A stretch of DNA of 64,000 bases from the NCBI GenBank assembly GCA_023133275.1, contig JAGLWU010000021.1:1341-65340 (forward strand), in the 5' to 3' direction. The DNA comes from Candidatus Moraniibacteriota bacterium (GTDB lineage: Bacteria; Patescibacteriota; Minisyncoccia; Moranbacterales; GCA-2747515). The notes below the pieces were generated by a model. It was not told where the DNA came from, searched no databases, and worked only from the letters and a program-made list of their open reading frames with translations. Shown here piece after piece: positions 4,256 to 57,596 of this stretch. The position numbers were made by a program, and so were the translations under genes. The first letter of the stretch is position 1. Every line of letters starts with the position of its first letter.

Positions 4256-5833
4256 TTAGAAAAACTTTTTTATAAACCAATTATCACAGTCAACATCCAC
4301 TCTTGAATTTTCTTGAGTAACTTTAGGACAATCATTATCATTTATAATTTTGATGTCTAATGAATTCTCTATCTCAAAAAAAGGAATACTTACATTTTTA
4401 AAATTAATATTATTTATATCCTTTAATTTTACAAAAATTTTCTCTCCTTCAACCTGAATATTTTTAAATAATACACCATTAACTTTATTTTTAAATCCCT
4501 TAAATCTAATAATCGTCTTTTTCCCATTATTAATAATTTTAATATCACAAAACTCAATATTTCTCATTTCAGGCTCCTTAGTTGTTTCAGAGTCTTCACC
4601 ACCATAACGAAAATTTATTTTTATAGCTTCTTTATCAGAATTTTTAATAAGAATATTTCTAAATACTACATTTTCTATTATACCACTTCTACCAGCTTTA
4701 GTTTTTATTCTTAAACCGTTATTAGATTTTTCAACTATCAAATCTTCAACAAATACATTTCTAACATCACCAGACATTTCACTTCCAATCGTAACTGCTC
4801 CATGACTTTCTTCAACGATATTATTTCTAATCACAATATTTTCGGATGACTTGCCTACTCTCCAACCATCTTTATCCCTTCCAGATTTTATTACAATTGC
4901 ATCATCCCCGCTTCTAATATTGTTATTTTCAATTAATACATTTTTTGATGAATCTATTGCAATCCCATCAGTATTTGGAGCACTCGTTTCTATATTTACA
5001 TTCCGTATAATCAAATTTTCTGTATACAAAGAATGAATTGTCCACATAGGACCATCCTTAACAGTAACATTTTCAATTAATACATTTTTTGAATTATAAG
5101 GCTGTATGAAAGAAGTTCTTATATAATCATCAACTTTACCAAAAATTCTATTTTCTACTGCGACATCTTCCAAAAACATATTGTATAATCTTCTTTTTGC
5201 CTCAGTTTCCTTTTCTTTAAAATCATTCCAACCATTAGGATTATTATTTTTTTGAATAATTCCTTTTCCTGTAATAGCTACATTCACACAATCAGGTATA
5301 TATATCATGAGCGAAAAATTCATTAATTCCATCCCTTCATAACGAGTTTTTACAACTGGAATATAATCGGTTGGCTCTGAAGAAAAAGTAATTATTGACC
5401 CTTCTTCTAAAAATAAGTTAATATTACTTTTAAAGTGAATTGGACCATTAAGCAGCCATTCACCAACTGGAACTTTTACTGTCCCACCCCCTTTATTTGA
5501 ACAATCTTCAATGGCTTTTTTAAAAGATTCTACATTGTGATTTTCAACTTCACTGTTAATTTTTATAGCACCGTAATCAGAAATATTACAAATATTATTT
5601 GGAAATATTGGAGAACTAATATTTTCAACAAAATCAACGAAAGTTAAATCTATTTCAACATATTTACTGCTTAAGTCACTATTTAAATCAATATCTTCTT
5701 TTGTAAACTTATTCTTAGTATTATTTATAAAAATAAAACAAAGTAAGCTAATTAATACAATTATAAAGTAAACTAAATAATTGGAATTTAAAAATTTTTT
5801 AATTTTTTCTTTTAGCATAAAAAATTTAATCAT
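4256..5833 (-). CDS. Membrane-anchored GH28-like (polygalacturonase family) beta-helix glycoside hydrolase, paralog 1
   Basis: N-terminal TM anchor. All four GH28 signature segments are present: NTDGIAIDSS, SGDDAIVIKSG, ESHGAVTIGSEMSGDVRNV and RIKT. Also the CSNKGGGTVKVPVGEW N-cap typical of pectate-lyase-fold enzymes. Confidence 0.75.
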   Translation of the reverse strand: MIKFFMLKEKIKKFLNSNYLVYFIIVLISLLCFIFINNTKNKFTKEDIDLNSDLSSKYVEIDLTFVDFVENISSPIFPNNICNISDYGAIKINSEVENHNVESFKKAIEDCSNKGGGTVKVPVGEWLLNGPIHFKSNINLFLEEGSIITFSSEPTDYIPVVKTRYEGMELMNFSLMIYIPDCVNVAITGKGIIQKNNNPNGWNDFKEKETEAKRRLYNMFLEDVAVENRIFGKVDDYIRTSFIQPYNSKNVLIENVTVKDGPMWTIHSLYTENLIIRNVNIETSAPNTDGIAIDSSKNVLIENNNIRSGDDAIVIKSGRDKDGWRVGKSSENIVIRNNIVEESHGAVTIGSEMSGDVRNVFVEDLIVEKSNNGLRIKTKAGRSGIIENVVFRNILIKNSDKEAIKINFRYGGEDSETTKEPEMRNIEFCDIKIINNGKKTIIRFKGFKNKVNGVLFKNIQVEGEKIFVKLKDINNINFKNVSIPFFEIENSLDIKIINDNDCPKVTQENSRVDVDCDNWFIKKFF

Positions 5834-37008: not shown

Positions 37009-37584
37009 CTAATAATTTTCCACAAAAAGTTCAAAGTGAGCCTGCGAATGAGCACATGACGGGCATTCCTCTAAAGCATCAGTTCCCTCATGTAAATAAC
37101 CACAATTTTGACATTTCCAAATAACTTTCTCCTCCCGTTTAAAAACCTTTCCGTTCTCAACATTTGCCAACAACTTCAAATAACGAGTTTCATGAGCCTT
37201 TTCAACTTTCGCGATATTTCGCCAAACCATCGCAATATCCACAAAACCCTCTTCCTCCGCAATATCCGCAAAAGCTGGATACAATTCCGTCCATTCTTCA
37301 TTTTCACCTTCAACCGACGCTTTCAAATTTTCCGCAGTCGTTCCAATTTTTCCCGCTGGATAAGTTGCTGTAATTTCCACCATTCGCCCTTCTAAAAACT
37401 TAAAAAAACGTTTTGCATGTTCTTTTTCATTTAAAGCTGTTTCTGCAAAAAATACTGAGATTTGTTCAAAGCCGTCTTTTTTCGCCTGCTTTGAAAAATA
37501 GTCATAACGCATCCGAGCTTGTGATTCTCCTGCAAATGATTTTAATAAATTTTGCTCCGTCTGTGTTCCTTTTAAACTTTCCAT
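37009..37584 (-). CDS. rbr: Rubrerythrin
   Basis: Ferritin-like diiron four-helix region (EKEHAKRF...EGENEEWTELY...EKAHETRY). C-terminal rubredoxin-like CQNCGY...CPSC. Confidence 0.85.
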   Translation of the reverse strand: MESLKGTQTEQNLLKSFAGESQARMRYDYFSKQAKKDGFEQISVFFAETALNEKEHAKRFFKFLEGRMVEITATYPAGKIGTTAENLKASVEGENEEWTELYPAFADIAEEEGFVDIAMVWRNIAKVEKAHETRYLKLLANVENGKVFKREEKVIWKCQNCGYLHEGTDALEECPSCAHSQAHFELFVENY

Positions 37585-37663
37585 AGTTTTATTTTTTAAT
37601 AATTATTTTACTGTAATTAATAGTATCATCTCTTGAAAAATAAATAAAGAGAGAAAATTTCAT

Positions 37664-37692
37664 TTGACTTATTTTAAAAATTTAGTTATATT
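37664..37692 (+). promoter_or_regulatory. Canonical sigma70-type promoter for the 28-aa peptide gene
   Basis: TTGACT (37664-37669), a 17-nt spacer, then TATATT (37687-37692). SD AAGGAGG lies 6 nt before the ATG. Confidence 0.6.
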
Positions 37693-37726
37693 TACTTATC
37701 ATCAAAAAAATAAAAGGAGGCACATT

Positions 37727-37813
37727 ATGGATTTTGGAGAATGGATCCTGCTCACTGTTGCAACACCAATAATAGCGTACACACTGTATCGTGTTTTCAC
37801 TCTTAAAGGGTGA
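37727..37813 (+). CDS. 28-aa hydrophobic peptide (type I toxin-like small membrane protein)
   Basis: MDFGEWILLTVATPIIAYTLYRVFTLKG. Perfect SD. Noticeably higher GC than its surroundings. An antisense ORF-like frame on the minus strand. Confidence 0.5.
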   Translation: MDFGEWILLTVATPIIAYTLYRVFTLKG

Positions 37814-37916
37814 ACTCCTGATGAATGTTCCTCAGGTGAAGAACAAAAAGACAATAACGCATGAGTTGCCAGCAGTTTGTAACACATGCATTTTTTAATT
37901 TATTTTCAAAAAAAGT

Positions 37917-37960
37917 GCTCGCCACACAGGTTTTTAAAACTACAAGCCCAATTTAAACAA
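37917..37960. repeat. Repeat module A2 (GTGCTCGCCACAnnnnTTTTnAAAAnTACAAGnC), copy R3
   Basis: About 80% identical to 56090-56135. Confidence 0.6.
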
Positions 37961-38398
37961 ACTTAAGTCACCACTTAATTCACTCTTTATCAAACTTTCA
38001 ATATTAATATTATCAGCTAATTTTATATTAAAATTAAAAGTAAAATTATCTTTAGCCTCTTTATCATCTCTTTCAATACCTTCTATTATATCTACACCAT
38101 GAGCTATAACATGAATATTATAAAATATTTCTCTACCATCTTTTGAAAAAAAATTATAAGAAATAAATCCTTTTTCCTCAAGATATTGTAAAGAATTATA
38201 AAGATTATAGAAGTTATTATCAGATATAATTAATAAATCCTTTTCTTCATCTTTCAATGGCTCAAATTTTAATTCATCTTTATCATTTATGAATTCAAGA
38301 TCAAAATTTAAACTAATATCATTTTCAATCCCTCTTCTACGTTTACGTTCATAAAAATACAAAAGTAAATCACCCGAAATTTTCTTAATCGTTTTCAT
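37940..38398 (-). CDS. Hypothetical protein
   Basis: 152 aa ORF. No motif recognised. Confidence 0.4.
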   Translation of the reverse strand: MKTIKKISGDLLLYFYERKRRRGIENDISLNFDLEFINDKDELKFEPLKDEEKDLLIISDNNFYNLYNSLQYLEEKGFISYNFFSKDGREIFYNIHVIAHGVDIIEGIERDDKEAKDNFTFNFNIKLADNINIESLIKSELSGDLSLFKLGL

Positions 38399-38423
38399 AA
38401 AATCTAAATTATTAATTACAAAT

Positions 38424-39473
38424 TTATTTAATCACTAACTTTTCAATCCCCAGCATCTCTTCCCCAATCAAAAAACTCAACATCGCACCACCACCAGTCG
38501 ACACAAAAGAAATATCCTCCCAATAACCACTCTCCGCCAAAGCCTGCACACTCTCCCCACCACCAATCAAACTAAAAGCATCTTTATTCCCCGCTACAAA
38601 CTTAACCAATTCCCGAGTTCCAATATCATAAGGCTTTTCCTCAAATTTACCCATCGGACCATTCCACACAATCGTTTTCGCCTGCTCAATTTTTTCCCGA
38701 AAAAGCTCAATCGTTTTTGGACCAATATCCAAAGTTTCGCCCGTAAAATCCACTGGCAAAATAACCTTTTCCGAAAAATTAATCCCCTGTTCAATTGCTT
38801 CAACCGCCACTCGTCCACCAACCAAAACATAATTATAACTTTTTTCAAACATCTTAATCAAAGGTAATTTAGTCGCAATTTTTGACCCACCAATAATCGC
38901 CACCGCTGGACGTTTTTGTAAATTTTTAACTTTTTCTAAATTTTCAATTTCCTTTTGTAACCAAATTCCACCAAATGATGGAAGAATATCAGTAATTACA
39001 TAAAGAGACGCATGTCCACGATGATCAACGCCAAAAGAATCATTCACATAAATATCAAATGGTTCAGCCAACTTTTTTGCAAATTTAACATCACCTTTTT
39101 TCTCGCCAGAATAAAAACGAACATTTTCCAAAAGAATAATTTGATTTTCACCATTTTCAATTTCACCTTTCACTTTTTCACCAATACAATCATTCGCAAA
39201 AAAAACTTTTCTTTTCAAAATTCTTTCAACATCGTCAGCAATTTGTTTTACCGAAAATTCTGGTTTAATCTCACCATCCGGACGACCAAAATGAGTCAAC
39301 AAAGCAATTTTTCTCGCTCCATTTTCAATTAACCATTCTAAACTTTCTTTGGCAGCAAGAATTTTATGCGACTCAATCACATCACCTTTTTCATCAAGCG
39401 AAACATTAAAATCAACTCTCAATAAAACATTTTTTCCATTCACATCAGCGTTTTGTATTTTTTTAATATTCAT
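38424..39473 (-). CDS. pgk: Phosphoglycerate kinase
   Basis: N-terminal LLRVDFNVSL. Substrate-binding and hinge motifs. C-terminal IGGGESVQA...GGGAML. Start set at the internal ATG (MNIKKIQ...). The longer ORF would overlap dfx. Confidence 0.85.
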   Translation of the reverse strand: MNIKKIQNADVNGKNVLLRVDFNVSLDEKGDVIESHKILAAKESLEWLIENGARKIALLTHFGRPDGEIKPEFSVKQIADDVERILKRKVFFANDCIGEKVKGEIENGENQIILLENVRFYSGEKKGDVKFAKKLAEPFDIYVNDSFGVDHRGHASLYVITDILPSFGGIWLQKEIENLEKVKNLQKRPAVAIIGGSKIATKLPLIKMFEKSYNYVLVGGRVAVEAIEQGINFSEKVILPVDFTGETLDIGPKTIELFREKIEQAKTIVWNGPMGKFEEKPYDIGTRELVKFVAGNKDAFSLIGGGESVQALAESGYWEDISFVSTGGGAMLSFLIGEEMLGIEKLVIK

Positions 39474-39508
39474 AAATATTCTAAATTTAAAAAATTTATC
39501 ATTAAAAA

Positions 39509-39889
39509 TTATTTTATCGCTTTCCATAAACCATGCAAATTACAATACGCTCGAACTACAAAATCATCTGATTTGATAGCGAAAAATACCTCTGGCTGAT
39601 CACCAACTTTCAAAAAAACTTTCTGATTTTCACCACCAGCAATAATTTCAATCCACTCAATAAAATGATCCTCTTCCATCGGATGTGCCACTTCACCAAC
39701 TTTAATTTTAATTCCCCCCTTAATTTTTTCAACAACTGGAACATGCTTTTCAATCGTTGCATCTTCAATATTTTCAATCTGCAAATTCATCAGTTGATTG
39801 CAACAAACCAATTCCCCCACTCCAACATGATTAATTTGAACAATATTTCCACAAATTAAACATTTATAAACCTGATGTTTCTCAGTCAT
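39509..39889 (-). CDS. dfx: Desulfoferrodoxin (2Fe superoxide reductase)
   Basis: N-terminal desulforedoxin-like CxxC...CC (CLICGN...VCCN). SOR centre EKHVP...HPMEEDH...CNLHG. Confidence 0.85.
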   Translation of the reverse strand: MTEKHQVYKCLICGNIVQINHVGVGELVCCNQLMNLQIENIEDATIEKHVPVVEKIKGGIKIKVGEVAHPMEEDHFIEWIEIIAGGENQKVFLKVGDQPEVFFAIKSDDFVVRAYCNLHGLWKAIK

Positions 39890-57197: not shown

Positions 57198-57596
57198 ATG
57201 TCATCTGATTATCCAGAAATTAATCATAATCTCGGAGAAAACGGCTACGTCATCTACGGAGAAACATACTCCTCTTTCATTAAATATGAATATCAGCTAA
57301 TACTAGGTATGATATTTACTTGCTTTGTAAGAGAGGGTTCATGGTCATTGAAGGTGAAATGGTCAGATAAAATTATAGAACCTGGCCACATCTTAAATAC
57401 CACAGAAATCCCATTTATTGATGTATTATTTGATTATCCAGTTATTAATGATTTTCTTGGATCCCAACCTTATGTGCTTCATTGTTTTAAAAGTTATGGA
57501 TACAAAAAAATACTCAAAGAGATGGATAAATATCGATTGATCTCATATACTAACAAACCAACAATTATGACTATATATATATATCTCCTCACGTAG
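57198..57596 (+). CDS. Hypothetical protein (cassette-driven ORF d)
   Basis: 132 aa. GGAGG RBS 7 nt upstream. Confidence 0.45.
   Translation: MSSDYPEINHNLGENGYVIYGETYSSFIKYEYQLILGMIFTCFVREGSWSLKVKWSDKIIEPGHILNTTEIPFIDVLFDYPVINDFLGSQPYVLHCFKSYGYKKILKEMDKYRLISYTNKPTIMTIYIYLLT

What the first reader, a model, noticed from the sequence alone, without database searches (positions are those of the whole stretch)
37664..37890. Type I toxin-like 28-aa hydrophobic peptide gene with textbook promoter and SD inside an oxidative-stress gene cluster
TTGACT, a 17-nt spacer, TATATT, then AAGGAGG 6 nt before the ATG. It encodes MDFGEWILLTVATPIIAYTLYRVFTLKG, a single TM helix with a basic C-terminus. GC content is about 45% against roughly 29% for the surroundings. 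The opposite strand carries an ORF-like frame (37702..37887), which could reflect an antisense RNA. Such small, strongly expressed, membrane-active peptides with antisense partners are typical of type I toxin-antitoxin loci, or they act as small regulatory membrane proteins. It lies between rbr and pgk-dfx.
Basis: partly seen in the sequence, partly recalled or inferred. Interest (0 to 1): 0.6.

Follow-up and report, generated by a model that had tools for sequence, protein, structure and literature searches.

The report
Orphan small-peptide gene splitting rbr promoter
A roughly 265-base insertion in the promoter of an oxidative-stress gene of an uncultured Moranbacteria genome carries its own promoter, a 28-codon reading frame and a terminator; it is probably a real, fast-evolving small peptide gene, but nothing shows that it is a toxin-antitoxin locus.

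Summary
The promoter (TTGACT-17-TATATT), the AAGGAGG 6 nt before the ATG, and the 28-codon ORF (37727..37813) are all present. The GC contrast is overstated: the ORF is 41% GC, the neighbouring rbr gene 38%, and the window 30%.

The main result is comparative. Four close relatives have an intact rbr promoter (TTGAAA-17-TATATT), and a fifth has unrelated DNA upstream of the -10. This window has about 265 nt (37623..37887) inserted between that -35 and -10, and the whole small-ORF unit lies inside the insertion, facing away from rbr. One other relative (L097) has a homologous insertion at the same site.

Between the two copies, both promoter hexamers and their spacing, the 15-mer AGGAGGCACATTATG, the stop position and a stem-loop plus T6 terminator are conserved. 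The only indel inside the ORF is 15 nt, so it stays in frame. The peptides share only about 35% identity, and substitutions show no third-position excess. The antisense 61-aa frame is broken in L097, and no antisense promoter is conserved.

No homologue was found in any database searched. The host genome almost never uses Shine-Dalgarno motifs, so this one is an outlier.

Verdict: a probable orphan small-peptide cassette. A type I toxin role is possible but unsupported.

The parts
37623..37887 (.). About 265-nt insertion relative to the empty-site relatives. It holds the whole small-ORF unit. Boundaries are good to about +/-3 nt.
   Evidence: the two flanks match L092 at 5448-5496 (90%) and 5499-5535 (95%). 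They are contiguous in L092, L091 and L093 but 265 nt apart here. L095 and L096 also have the empty site. L097 has a homologous insertion (blastn E = 4e-34).
37664..37692 (+). Sigma-70-type promoter: TTGACT, 17 nt, TATATT. The transcription start is inferred at about 37698-37701.
   Evidence: 10/12 match. Both hexamers and the 17-nt spacing are identical in L097, while 6 of the 17 spacer bases differ.
37714..37720 (+). AAGGAGG, a Shine-Dalgarno-like motif 6 nt before the ATG. It is part of a 15-nt block, AGGAGGCACATTATG, that is identical in L097.
   Evidence: It is an outlier in a genome where 45 of 46 long ORFs lack any SD. It is the only AGGAGG-ATG pair outside a gene.
37727..37813 (+). 28-codon ORF plus stop: MDFGEWILLTVATPIIAYTLYRVFTLKG. 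It has a hydrophobic N-terminal segment and a basic, aromatic C-terminus.
   Evidence: The L097 orthologue is MNSGEWIILAIVTIITGRPIFKLIRSIIIDRKK, with the same start and stop columns and a 15-nt in-frame indel. Neutral retention of the open frame is estimated at p about 0.035-0.10.
37815..37854 (+). 3' UTR containing the conserved block GAATGYTCCTCAGGTGARG. This block is partly complementary to the SD/AUG region.
   Evidence: 76% identity excluding gaps, against 42% for the ORF C-terminal half. The RNAalifold consensus pairs GAGG/CCUC and CAUU/AAUG. The duplex energy is marginal in the window (p about 0.035) and not significant in L097 (p = 0.34).
37859..37896 (+). Intrinsic terminator: a 10-11-bp stem (GCATGA-GTTGC / GTAAC-A-CATGC), a 9-nt loop, then A and T6.
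   Evidence: -10.3 kcal/mol here and -18.2 kcal/mol in L097 (z = -3.6). Identity is 91%. One pair changes from G-U to G-C. The consensus scan missed it because the loop exceeds 8 nt.
37904..37909 (-). Orphaned -35 hexamer (TTGAAA) of the ancestral rbr promoter. It now lies about 265 nt from its -10.
   Evidence: The L092 empty site reads TTGAAA-17-TATATT with TG upstream (10/12).
37620..37628 (-). Remaining rbr -10 region, read as TGATACTAT (TGn plus TACTAT). The TG is supplied by the end of the insertion. It is a possible extended -10 promoter for rbr.
   Evidence: Read directly. L097 has TGATATATT at the same place. An alternative is TTTTCA-17/18-TA(C/T)AGT. Function is inferred only.
37009..37584 (-). 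rbr (rubrerythrin, 191 aa). Its promoter is split by the insertion.

Best explanation
The locus is an accessory, lineage-restricted small-gene cassette of about 265 bp. It sits in the spacer of the rubrerythrin promoter of a Candidatus Moranbacteria genome and is transcribed away from rbr.

The cassette is autonomous. It has a near-consensus sigma-70 promoter, an A-rich leader with a GGAGG motif, a 28-33-codon ORF, and a stem-loop plus U-tract terminator. Together these would give an RNA of about 200 nt.

I consider the ORF most likely to be translated into a rapidly evolving peptide. Its conserved N-terminal GEWI-hydrophobic segment would insert in the membrane, with the basic C-terminal tail on the cytoplasmic side (positive-inside rule). 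What the peptide does there is not shown; it could modulate a membrane function or damage the membrane.

A second, inferred consequence concerns rbr. Its original -35 is displaced, so rbr must now be transcribed in one of two ways. One is from a weaker extended -10 or hybrid promoter at the cassette edge. The other is read-through from the upstream genes, which would run antisense across the cassette.

Shown: the insertion, its anatomy, and its conservation in a second lineage. Inferred: transcription, translation, membrane insertion, and the effect on rbr.
For: **Insertion.** Relatives L091, L092, L093, L095 and L096 keep dfx/pgk-[variable]-rbr-tyrS synteny or the same rbr upstream sequence. 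All show a contiguous TTGAAA-17-TATATT rbr promoter. The window has 265 extra nt between the two hexamers.

**Second copy.** L097 carries a homologous element at the same site and in the same orientation.

**Segment identities (gaps excluded).** The region from the -10 through the SD to the ATG is 89% identical. The terminator is 91%. The ORF N-terminal half is 73%. The ORF C-terminal half is 42%.

**Coding signals.**
- Both copies use the same start and stop columns.
- The only indel within the ORF is 15 nt. Indels outside the ORF are 1, 3, 1, 6 and 1 nt.
- Three of the seven substitutions in codons 2-9 are synonymous.
- Many replacements are conservative: L/I, V/I, A/V, Y/F, R/K.
- Neutral retention of an open frame is estimated at p about 0.035-0.10.

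**Other signals.**
- The terminator hairpin is stable in both copies.
- The AGGAGG-ATG arrangement is unique in 222 kb of strands searched.
- The antisense frame is not conserved.
Against: - Overall substitutions in the ORF show no third-position excess (14/11/9 by codon position). There are 19 nonsynonymous changes against 3 synonymous.
- The peptides are only about 35% identical, and the match is not significant at the protein level. The ORF is the least conserved part of the element. That pattern also fits an sRNA with conserved ends.
- Hydrophobicity does not discriminate in this genome. In L097, R and P interrupt the putative helix.
- Only two copies are known, so there is no real power for dN/dS or covariation.
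- No gene caller annotated the ORF, and neither peptide is among 15 billion predicted proteins.
- The SD may not be functional in this host.
- There are no expression data.
Confidence: 0.55

Rival explanations
1. Type I toxin-antitoxin-like module. On this reading the peptide is a membrane-damaging toxin. Its mRNA would be kept silent by a fold-back between the SD/AUG region and the conserved 3'-UTR block. An antisense RNA could also contribute, for example rbr-directed or read-through transcription from the pgk side crossing the cassette.
For: - The size and layout fit: a hydrophobic segment followed by a charged, bulky C-terminus, as in the Fozo et al. 2010 criteria (PMC2887945). L097 passes their >= 10/15 hydrophobic rule.
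- The unit is autonomous, sits in an intergenic region, and shows presence/absence polymorphism among close relatives. This resembles zor-orz in EHEC against K-12.
- The SD is paired in the MFE and consensus folds of both copies.
- The two best-conserved blocks are mutually complementary, and the window duplex is -13 kcal/mol (p about 0.035).
- Any transcription into rbr from upstream would necessarily be antisense to the cassette.
Against: - No conserved antisense promoter is present in either copy. The orphaned rbr -35 has no usable -10.
- SD pairing is no stronger than in 27% of shuffles, and the L097 duplex is not significant (p = 0.34).
- The window peptide fails the 10/15 rule with 9/15.
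- There is no homology to Hok, Ldr, Fst, TisB, Ibs or other families.
- It is single copy, with no tandem repeat.
- Nothing was found on plasmids or phages.
- No paper in the held library combines type I toxin-antitoxin with Patescibacteria.
Confidence: 0.2
2. A non-coding element with a fortuitous ORF. One version is a small regulatory RNA of about 200 nt. In it the conserved 5' block and the 3' block plus terminator would be functional and the middle would be free to drift. Another version is simply a promoter-carrying insertion that rewires or insulates rbr transcription.
For: - The conservation profile is high at both ends and lowest in the ORF interior.
- There is no third-position excess.
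- The peptide similarity is insignificant while the DNA similarity gives E = 4e-34.
- The host essentially does not use SD motifs.
- Open, hydrophobic small frames are common here.
- The insertion certainly changes the architecture of the rbr promoter.
Against: - Start codon, frame and stop column are all retained despite about 40% divergence and a 15-nt indel.
- The 15/15 conservation of AGGAGGCACATTATG is most simply a translation initiation region.
- There is no Rfam match.
- The window transcript does not fold better than shuffles.
- No target can be proposed.
Confidence: 0.2
3. A relic. It could be a decayed fragment of a larger gene (PKD-repeat or 'HxHxFGEW' repeat surface protein). Alternatively it could be a MITE or an invertible promoter segment.
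For: - phmmer of the TTG-extended 49-aa frame hit repeat proteins, at E = 8.5e-11 to 1e-4.
- A 16-nt, 81% inverted repeat (37633-37648 / 37894-37909) brackets most of the unit. Such long-range inverted matches are somewhat enriched: 5 against 0.6 in shuffles.
Against: - The repeat-protein scores are sums over many weak repeats. They depend on residues translated from the promoter and leader.
- Pfam finds no PKD domain even with stops masked.
- The matched motifs (DFG, P..AYT) are not conserved in L097.
- The two candidate families are mutually exclusive.
- The inverted-repeat arms are A/T tracts and are not at the insertion ends. There is no target-site duplication and no second copy.
- No recombinase domain was found among the neighbouring genes whose Pfam hits were examined.
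- All four contigs show the same orientation.
Confidence: 0.05

Closest known systems
Chromosomal type I toxin-antitoxin toxins (Fst/Ldr, TisB, Ibs, ShoB, ZorO, AapA1, BsrG, TxpA)
   Same: - A hydrophobic peptide under 40 aa with a charged or aromatic C-terminus.
- A stand-alone intergenic unit with its own promoter and terminator.
- Missed by gene callers.
- Present or absent among close relatives.
- A possible fold-back between the 3' UTR and the SD.
   Different: - No recognisable antitoxin sRNA gene or antisense promoter.
- No sequence homology to any toxin family.
- Single copy.
- SD sequestration is not statistically supported.
- The host is a CPR bacterium with essentially SD-free genes.
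- Toxicity is untested.
Small single-pass membrane proteins that modulate larger complexes (for example AcrZ, MgtS, KdpF, CydX)
   Same: - Similar size.
- One hydrophobic helix.
- An independent or stress-linked small gene next to stress genes.
   Different: - Those proteins are conserved in sequence and usually lie in the operon or regulon of their partner.
- This peptide evolves very fast and is an accessory insertion.
- It has no partner gene or homology.
Promoter-disrupting or promoter-creating small insertions (IS- or MITE-type hybrid promoters)
   Same: - A short insertion lands between the -35 and -10 of a resident promoter.
- Its end supplies bases (TG, and TTTTCA) that could rebuild a promoter for rbr.
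   Different: - No terminal inverted repeats at the ends, no target duplication and no transposase.
- No other copies.
- It carries a complete small gene of its own.
SD-led exceptions in SD-poor genomes (rpsU/bS21 in Bacteroidia; from my own knowledge, not tested here)
   Same: A rare, strong and conserved SD in a genome whose genes otherwise lack SD.
   Different: - There is no relation to ribosomal protein genes.
- Whether this lineage keeps the anti-SD is unknown, because no 16S rRNA gene is in the window.
- The regulatory logic is purely conjectural.

Membership tests
Type I toxin-antitoxin system | Small (<70 aa) toxin with a transmembrane stretch (Fozo 2010 rule: >= 10 of 15 residues in I, V, L, F, C, M, A) and a polar, charged or bulky C-terminus | tested here: inconclusive
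   The window peptide scores 9/15 and the L097 peptide 10/15. Best 19-aa Kyte-Doolittle windows are 1.48 and 1.85. However, 54% of all mechanical 24-40-aa ORFs in the window reach 9/15. The rule is taken from PMC2887945.
Type I toxin-antitoxin system | An antisense or adjacent sRNA antitoxin gene complementary to the toxin mRNA | tested here: not met
   Neither copy has a conserved promoter-like site on the opposite strand inside or just beyond the unit. The orphaned TTGAAA has no -10, as read. The antisense frame is irrelevant and not conserved. Read-through antisense transcription cannot be excluded without RNA-seq.
Type I toxin-antitoxin system | Toxin mRNA structure that occludes the ribosome binding site | tested here: inconclusive
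   GGAG is paired in both MFE folds and in the consensus fold. However, 27% of shuffles pair it at least as well. The duplex test gives p about 0.035 for the window and 0.34 for L097.
Type I toxin-antitoxin system | Homology to a described toxin family | tested here: not met
   Pfam, NCBIfam and PADLOC give no relevant hit for either peptide. tblastn against plasmids and phages finds nothing.
Type I toxin-antitoxin system | Toxicity on overexpression, relieved by the antitoxin RNA | not testable with these tools
   This needs an experiment.
Type I toxin-antitoxin system | Tandem or multiple copies (frequent, not obligatory) | tested here: not met
   No second copy exists in the 64-kb window or in 669 kb of fetched loci, apart from the orthologous L097 site and the source contigs L001-L003, which are identical copies of this same locus.
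MITE / IS-derived insertion | Terminal inverted repeats at the element ends, a target-site duplication, and multiple genomic copies | tested here: not met
   The only long inverted repeat (16 nt, 81%) is an A/T tract. One arm lies 10 nt inside the insertion and the other in the flank. No direct repeat is seen at the junctions. The element is single copy.
Invertible promoter (inverton) | Inverted repeats flanking a promoter, a nearby site-specific recombinase, and both orientations present in populations | tested here: not met
   The inverted repeat is weak. None of the neighbouring genes whose Pfam hits were examined has a recombinase domain. Contigs L001-L003 and L097 all have the same orientation.
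Described RNA families (Rfam 15) | A covariance-model match at or near the gathering score | tested here: not met
   There are no hits at gathering threshold in the whole window. The best E-value hits in 37550-38000 score 8-17 bits against thresholds of 45-290. No tRNA or tmRNA was found.
PKD-domain or FGEW-repeat surface protein (pseudogene fragment) | A domain-level match that is independent of non-coding upstream translation and is conserved in the homologue | tested here: not met
   Pfam finds no PKD in the 49-aa or the 101-aa stop-masked frame. The hits are sums of weak repeat matches. The motifs are absent from the L097 peptide.

The most novel reading that the evidence does not exclude
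This would be the first type I-toxin-like (or otherwise selfish) small-peptide cassette described in the Candidate Phyla Radiation. It would be marked by a conserved strong Shine-Dalgarno motif in a lineage whose own genes have abandoned SD-led initiation.

On this reading, translation is gated in one of two ways. One is a fold-back between the SD/AUG block and the conserved 3'-UTR block. The other is a special ribosome state.

The cassette's position inside the rbr promoter would couple it, through antisense transcription, to the oxidative-stress response.
Probability: 0.12. Interest if true: 0.65.

Novelty: new member of a known kind. Interest (0 to 1): 0.35.

Why it matters
If real, this is an unannotated, family-less small protein gene in an uncultured episymbiotic lineage. 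It shows how a cassette under 300 bp can land inside a strong stress-gene promoter and persist.

The cassette is also the only SD-led start seen in about 220 kb of strands from these genomes. That makes it a handle for asking whether these Parcubacteria still use SD:anti-SD pairing.

The practical value is modest. It is a two-lineage orphan with no functional data, so it is mainly a candidate for metatranscriptome checks and for small-protein catalogues.

Tried and rejected
1. **Known ncRNA.** Rfam at gathering and E-value thresholds and ARAGORN found nothing. Neither strand folds better than shuffles.

2. **Second downstream ORF.** MNVPQVKNKKTITHELPAVCNTCIF (37822..37899) is not conserved. 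In L097 the frame reduces to a 4-codon ORF, as read.

3. **Antisense 61-aa ORF as a gene.** In L097 a 1-nt indel and a TTA codon break it into 28-aa and 47-aa frames.

4. **PKD or HxHxFGEW repeat relic.** These are artefacts of multi-repeat scoring.

5. **Peptide homologues.**
   - A doubled-peptide scan of JGI metagenomes gave only a spurious repeat.
   - The viral contig patterns, phages and plasmids gave nothing.
   - There was no exact match among 15 billion proteins.

6. **Synteny through rbr in GTDB genomes.** Rbr is too widely shared (79% identical to Bacteroidales), so the loci were not syntenic.

7. **The 152-aa neighbour as a partner gene.** Its homologues sit beside restriction-modification genes and have no small ORF next to them.

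8. **Small-ORF promoter as an inverted duplicate of the rbr promoter.** Alignment scores are within the shuffle range, z <= 2.

9. **MITE or inverton.** See the membership tests.

10. **SD sequestration as a significant feature.** It is not significant.

Full report
**What is there.**
- The + strand carries TTGACT (37664-37669), a 17-nt spacer and TATATT (37687-37692).
- AAGGAGG lies at 37714-37720, six bases before an ATG at 37727.
- The ORF 37727..37813 encodes MDFGEWILLTVATPIIAYTLYRVFTLKG.
- Downstream is a 10-bp interrupted stem with a 9-nt loop (37859-37889), followed by A and T6. It folds at -10.3 kcal/mol. The consensus terminator scan missed it only because of the loop size.
- The opposite strand has an open 61-codon frame at 37702..37887.
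- The GC claim is not. The ORF is 41% GC, the span 37664-37890 is 35%, the window is 30%, and the neighbouring rbr gene is 38%.

**Is it more than chance?**
- Promoter-like sites are not enriched in the region: 5 found against 3.0 expected.
- Hydrophobic small ORFs are commonplace in this 30% GC genome. Of all 24-40-codon ATG ORFs, 17% have GRAVY >= 0.86 and 54% have >= 9 of 15 hydrophobic residues.
- What stands out is the Shine-Dalgarno motif. Of 46 long ORFs in the window, only one has any SD-like motif upstream.
- AGGAGG occurs 9 times on the two strands, and only at 37715 does it precede an ORF outside a gene.
- In 47 kb of related genomes, the only [AG]GGAGG followed by an ATG 4-9 nt downstream is the orthologue of this ORF.

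**Organism and context.**
- The exact Rbr and the 152-aa neighbour trace to metagenome contigs annotated as Candidatus Moranbacteria, in the CPR/Parcubacteria.
- Nearly all genes are on the - strand.
- The local order on the - strand is dfx, pgk, a 152-aa ORF, the locus, rbr, tyrS.

**The decisive comparison.**
- Relatives with 83-89% identical Pgk (L091, L092, L093) and 90-91% identical Rbr (L095, L096) keep the synteny or the same rbr upstream sequence.
- Upstream of rbr they share three features: a conserved terminator-like motif, a strong promoter TTGAAA-17-TATATT with a TG extension (10/12), and a short A-rich leader.
- In the window, the two flanks of that promoter are 90% and 95% identical to L092 but are separated by about 265 nt (37623..37887).
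- The small ORF, its promoter and most of its terminator lie inside this extra DNA, pointing away from rbr.
- The ancestral -35 is now stranded at 37904-37909.
- L098 (Rbr 88%) has unrelated DNA and a divergent gene beyond the same -10 boundary. This junction is therefore a recurrent breakpoint.

**A second copy.**
- L097 (Rbr 86%, a 1.6-kb contig) has a homologous element at the same place and in the same orientation. The blastn match is E = 4e-34, 72% over 285 columns.
- On an rbr neighbour-joining tree, the window and L097 are not sisters. The distribution is therefore patchy, implying spread by recombination or repeated gain and loss. The tree rests on 576 nt and is weak.
- Segment identities, excluding gaps:

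| Segment | Identity |
|---|---|
| -35 to -10 (both hexamers identical, spacing kept) | 79% |
| -10 through SD to ATG | 89% |
| ORF N-terminal half | 73% |
| ORF C-terminal half | 42% |
| 3' UTR | 76% |
| Terminator | 91% |

- AGGAGGCACATTATG is identical in both copies.
- The L097 ORF encodes MNSGEWIILAIVTIITGRPIFKLIRSIIIDRKK (33 aa). It has the same start and stop columns and one 15-nt indel. All indels outside the ORF are 1, 3, 1, 6 and 1 nt.
- A simple neutral simulation gives p about 0.10 for keeping the frame open, or about 0.035 when the indel phase is included.
- Against coding: substitutions are 14/11/9 by codon position, with 19 nonsynonymous against 3 synonymous. The peptides are only about 35% identical.
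- The antisense frame is broken in L097. The putative second ORF downstream is not conserved either.

**RNA-level tests.**
- There is no Rfam family and no tRNA or tmRNA.
- The full transcript of the window does not fold better than shuffles. That of L097 does, mostly because of its terminator.
- In both MFE folds and in the RNAalifold consensus, the GGAG of the SD is paired. In the consensus, GAGG and CAUU of the initiation region pair with CCUC and AAUG of the conserved 3'-UTR block.
- However, 27% of shuffles pair the SD at least as well.
- The duplex is marginal in the window (-13.0 kcal/mol, p about 0.035) and ordinary in L097 (p = 0.34).
- No conserved promoter-like site exists on the opposite strand within or just outside the unit.

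**Homology searches.**
- Pfam, NCBIfam and PADLOC give nothing for either peptide.
- phmmer of the TTG-extended 49-aa frame against 1.84 billion representatives returned only large repeat proteins (PKD-like WDFGDG repeats, HxHxFGEW repeats).
- Their scores are sums of many weak repeat matches and depend on residues translated from the promoter and leader. Pfam sees no PKD domain, and the motifs are absent from L097.
- The JGI metagenome scan, viral contigs, phages and plasmids gave no relatives.
- Neither peptide is in the 15-billion-protein collection, and no gene was called here.

**Interpretation.**
- The best-supported reading is an accessory, self-contained small-gene cassette that entered the spacer of the rbr promoter.
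- The conservation of promoter geometry, initiation region, frame, stop and terminator across a divergence that has scrambled the peptide's C-terminal half argues that the unit is expressed and probably translated.
- The conserved part of the product is M-x-x-GEWI followed by a hydrophobic run, with a basic tail. That suggests an N-out/C-in membrane peptide.
- Its function is not shown.
- A type I toxin role is the most specific hypothesis. It fits the size, the layout, the accessory distribution and the possible fold-back (criteria from PMC2887945).
- The defining antitoxin RNA could not be found at sequence level, and the structural signals are not significant. I rate it about 0.2.
- An sRNA or regulatory insertion with a fortuitous ORF is a serious rival at about 0.2, because the ORF interior is the least conserved part and shows no synonymous excess.
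- Relic, MITE and inverton readings were tested and are unlikely.

**Consequence for rbr (inferred).**
- The insertion leaves the -10 region and the TAAT-N-ATTA palindrome downstream of it intact but removes the -35.
- The cassette end supplies TG in front of TACTAT (TATATT in L097). It also supplies a TTTTCA hexamer 17-18 nt upstream of TA(C/T)AGT. rbr may therefore now run from a weaker extended -10 or hybrid promoter.
- Alternatively, rbr may be transcribed by read-through from the pgk side, which would be antisense to the cassette.
- rbr itself remains intact in both lineages.

**The SD anomaly.**
- The host genes are essentially SD-free.
- A published survey reports that the anti-SD motif is detected in only 48% of Parcubacteria, and that SD helices probably do not form in some of them (PMC9297842).
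- No 16S gene is in the window, so I cannot say whether this lineage keeps the anti-SD.
- Either the motif is a genuine, exceptional SD, or it is conserved for another reason such as RNA pairing.
- This is the most unusual aspect of the locus.

**Limits.**
- Only two independent copies exist. One lies on a contig that ends at the terminator.
- There are no expression data.
- The insertion polarity rests on five relatives with an empty site and a weak tree.
- The database scans that could have found more copies were capped.

Noticed in passing
window 13214, 32148, 37912, 39962, 45427, 55826, 56087, 60952 (each about 19 nt, + strand); also L091, L092, L093, L095 and L096 upstream of rbr and after tyrS: The 19-nt motif AAAGTGCTCGCCRCACRGG occurs 8 times, all in one orientation, against 0.01 expected. 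It is flanked by A and T runs and scored as a terminator-like hairpin in L092. It looks like a lineage-specific REP-like or bidirectional terminator element.
   Followed up: partly
whole window; upstream regions of 46 long ORFs: Only 1 of 46 long ORFs has any Shine-Dalgarno-like motif, so the genome appears to initiate translation without SD. The single exception is 57198..57596 (+), a 132-aa ORF with no Pfam match, preceded by GGAGG, on the minority strand and of atypical composition.
   Followed up: partly
window 37940..38423 and the equivalent slot in L091-L095: The slot between pgk and the rbr promoter is hypervariable among close relatives. It holds a 152-aa ORF here, a FolC-like 425-aa gene in L091, 148-aa plus 130-aa EamA-like genes in L092, a 142-aa gene in L093, and 100-aa plus 101-aa genes followed by an apparently decayed EamA-like remnant in L095.
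   Followed up: partly
window 37940..38398 (-); L086-L090: The 152-aa ORF has no Pfam, NCBIfam or PADLOC match and is 23% GC. It has CPR homologues (<= 55% identity) that sit immediately next to restriction-modification genes (HaeIII RE plus methylase, Eco57I/MmeI-type enzymes). It may be an R-M-associated accessory protein stranded here.
   Followed up: partly
window 37009..37584 (-): The rubrerythrin is 79% identical in protein to Bacteroidales Rbr. It is nearly as close to many unrelated phyla as to some CPR relatives, which suggests frequent horizontal transfer of this gene.
   Followed up: no
window 37597..37605 and the equivalent in L091-L097: The palindrome TAAT-N-ATTA lies between the rbr -10 and the start codon and is conserved in all relatives. 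It resembles a Fur/PerR-type operator core (from my own knowledge) and is untouched by the insertion.
   Followed up: no
L098 1..180: In this relative, the sequence beyond the rbr -10 is replaced by unrelated DNA. That DNA carries a divergent gene (MINSLPPGKNRIKALKATLKKLE...) with its own TTGACT promoter and a GGAG motif. The same -10/-35 junction is therefore a recombination breakpoint in three different configurations.
   Followed up: no
window 38424..39527 / 39509..39889 (-): The longest pgk ORF (367 aa) overlaps the dfx stop by 19 nt. Database homologues start about 18 codons later (349 aa), so the true pgk start is probably downstream of the first ATG.
   Followed up: no
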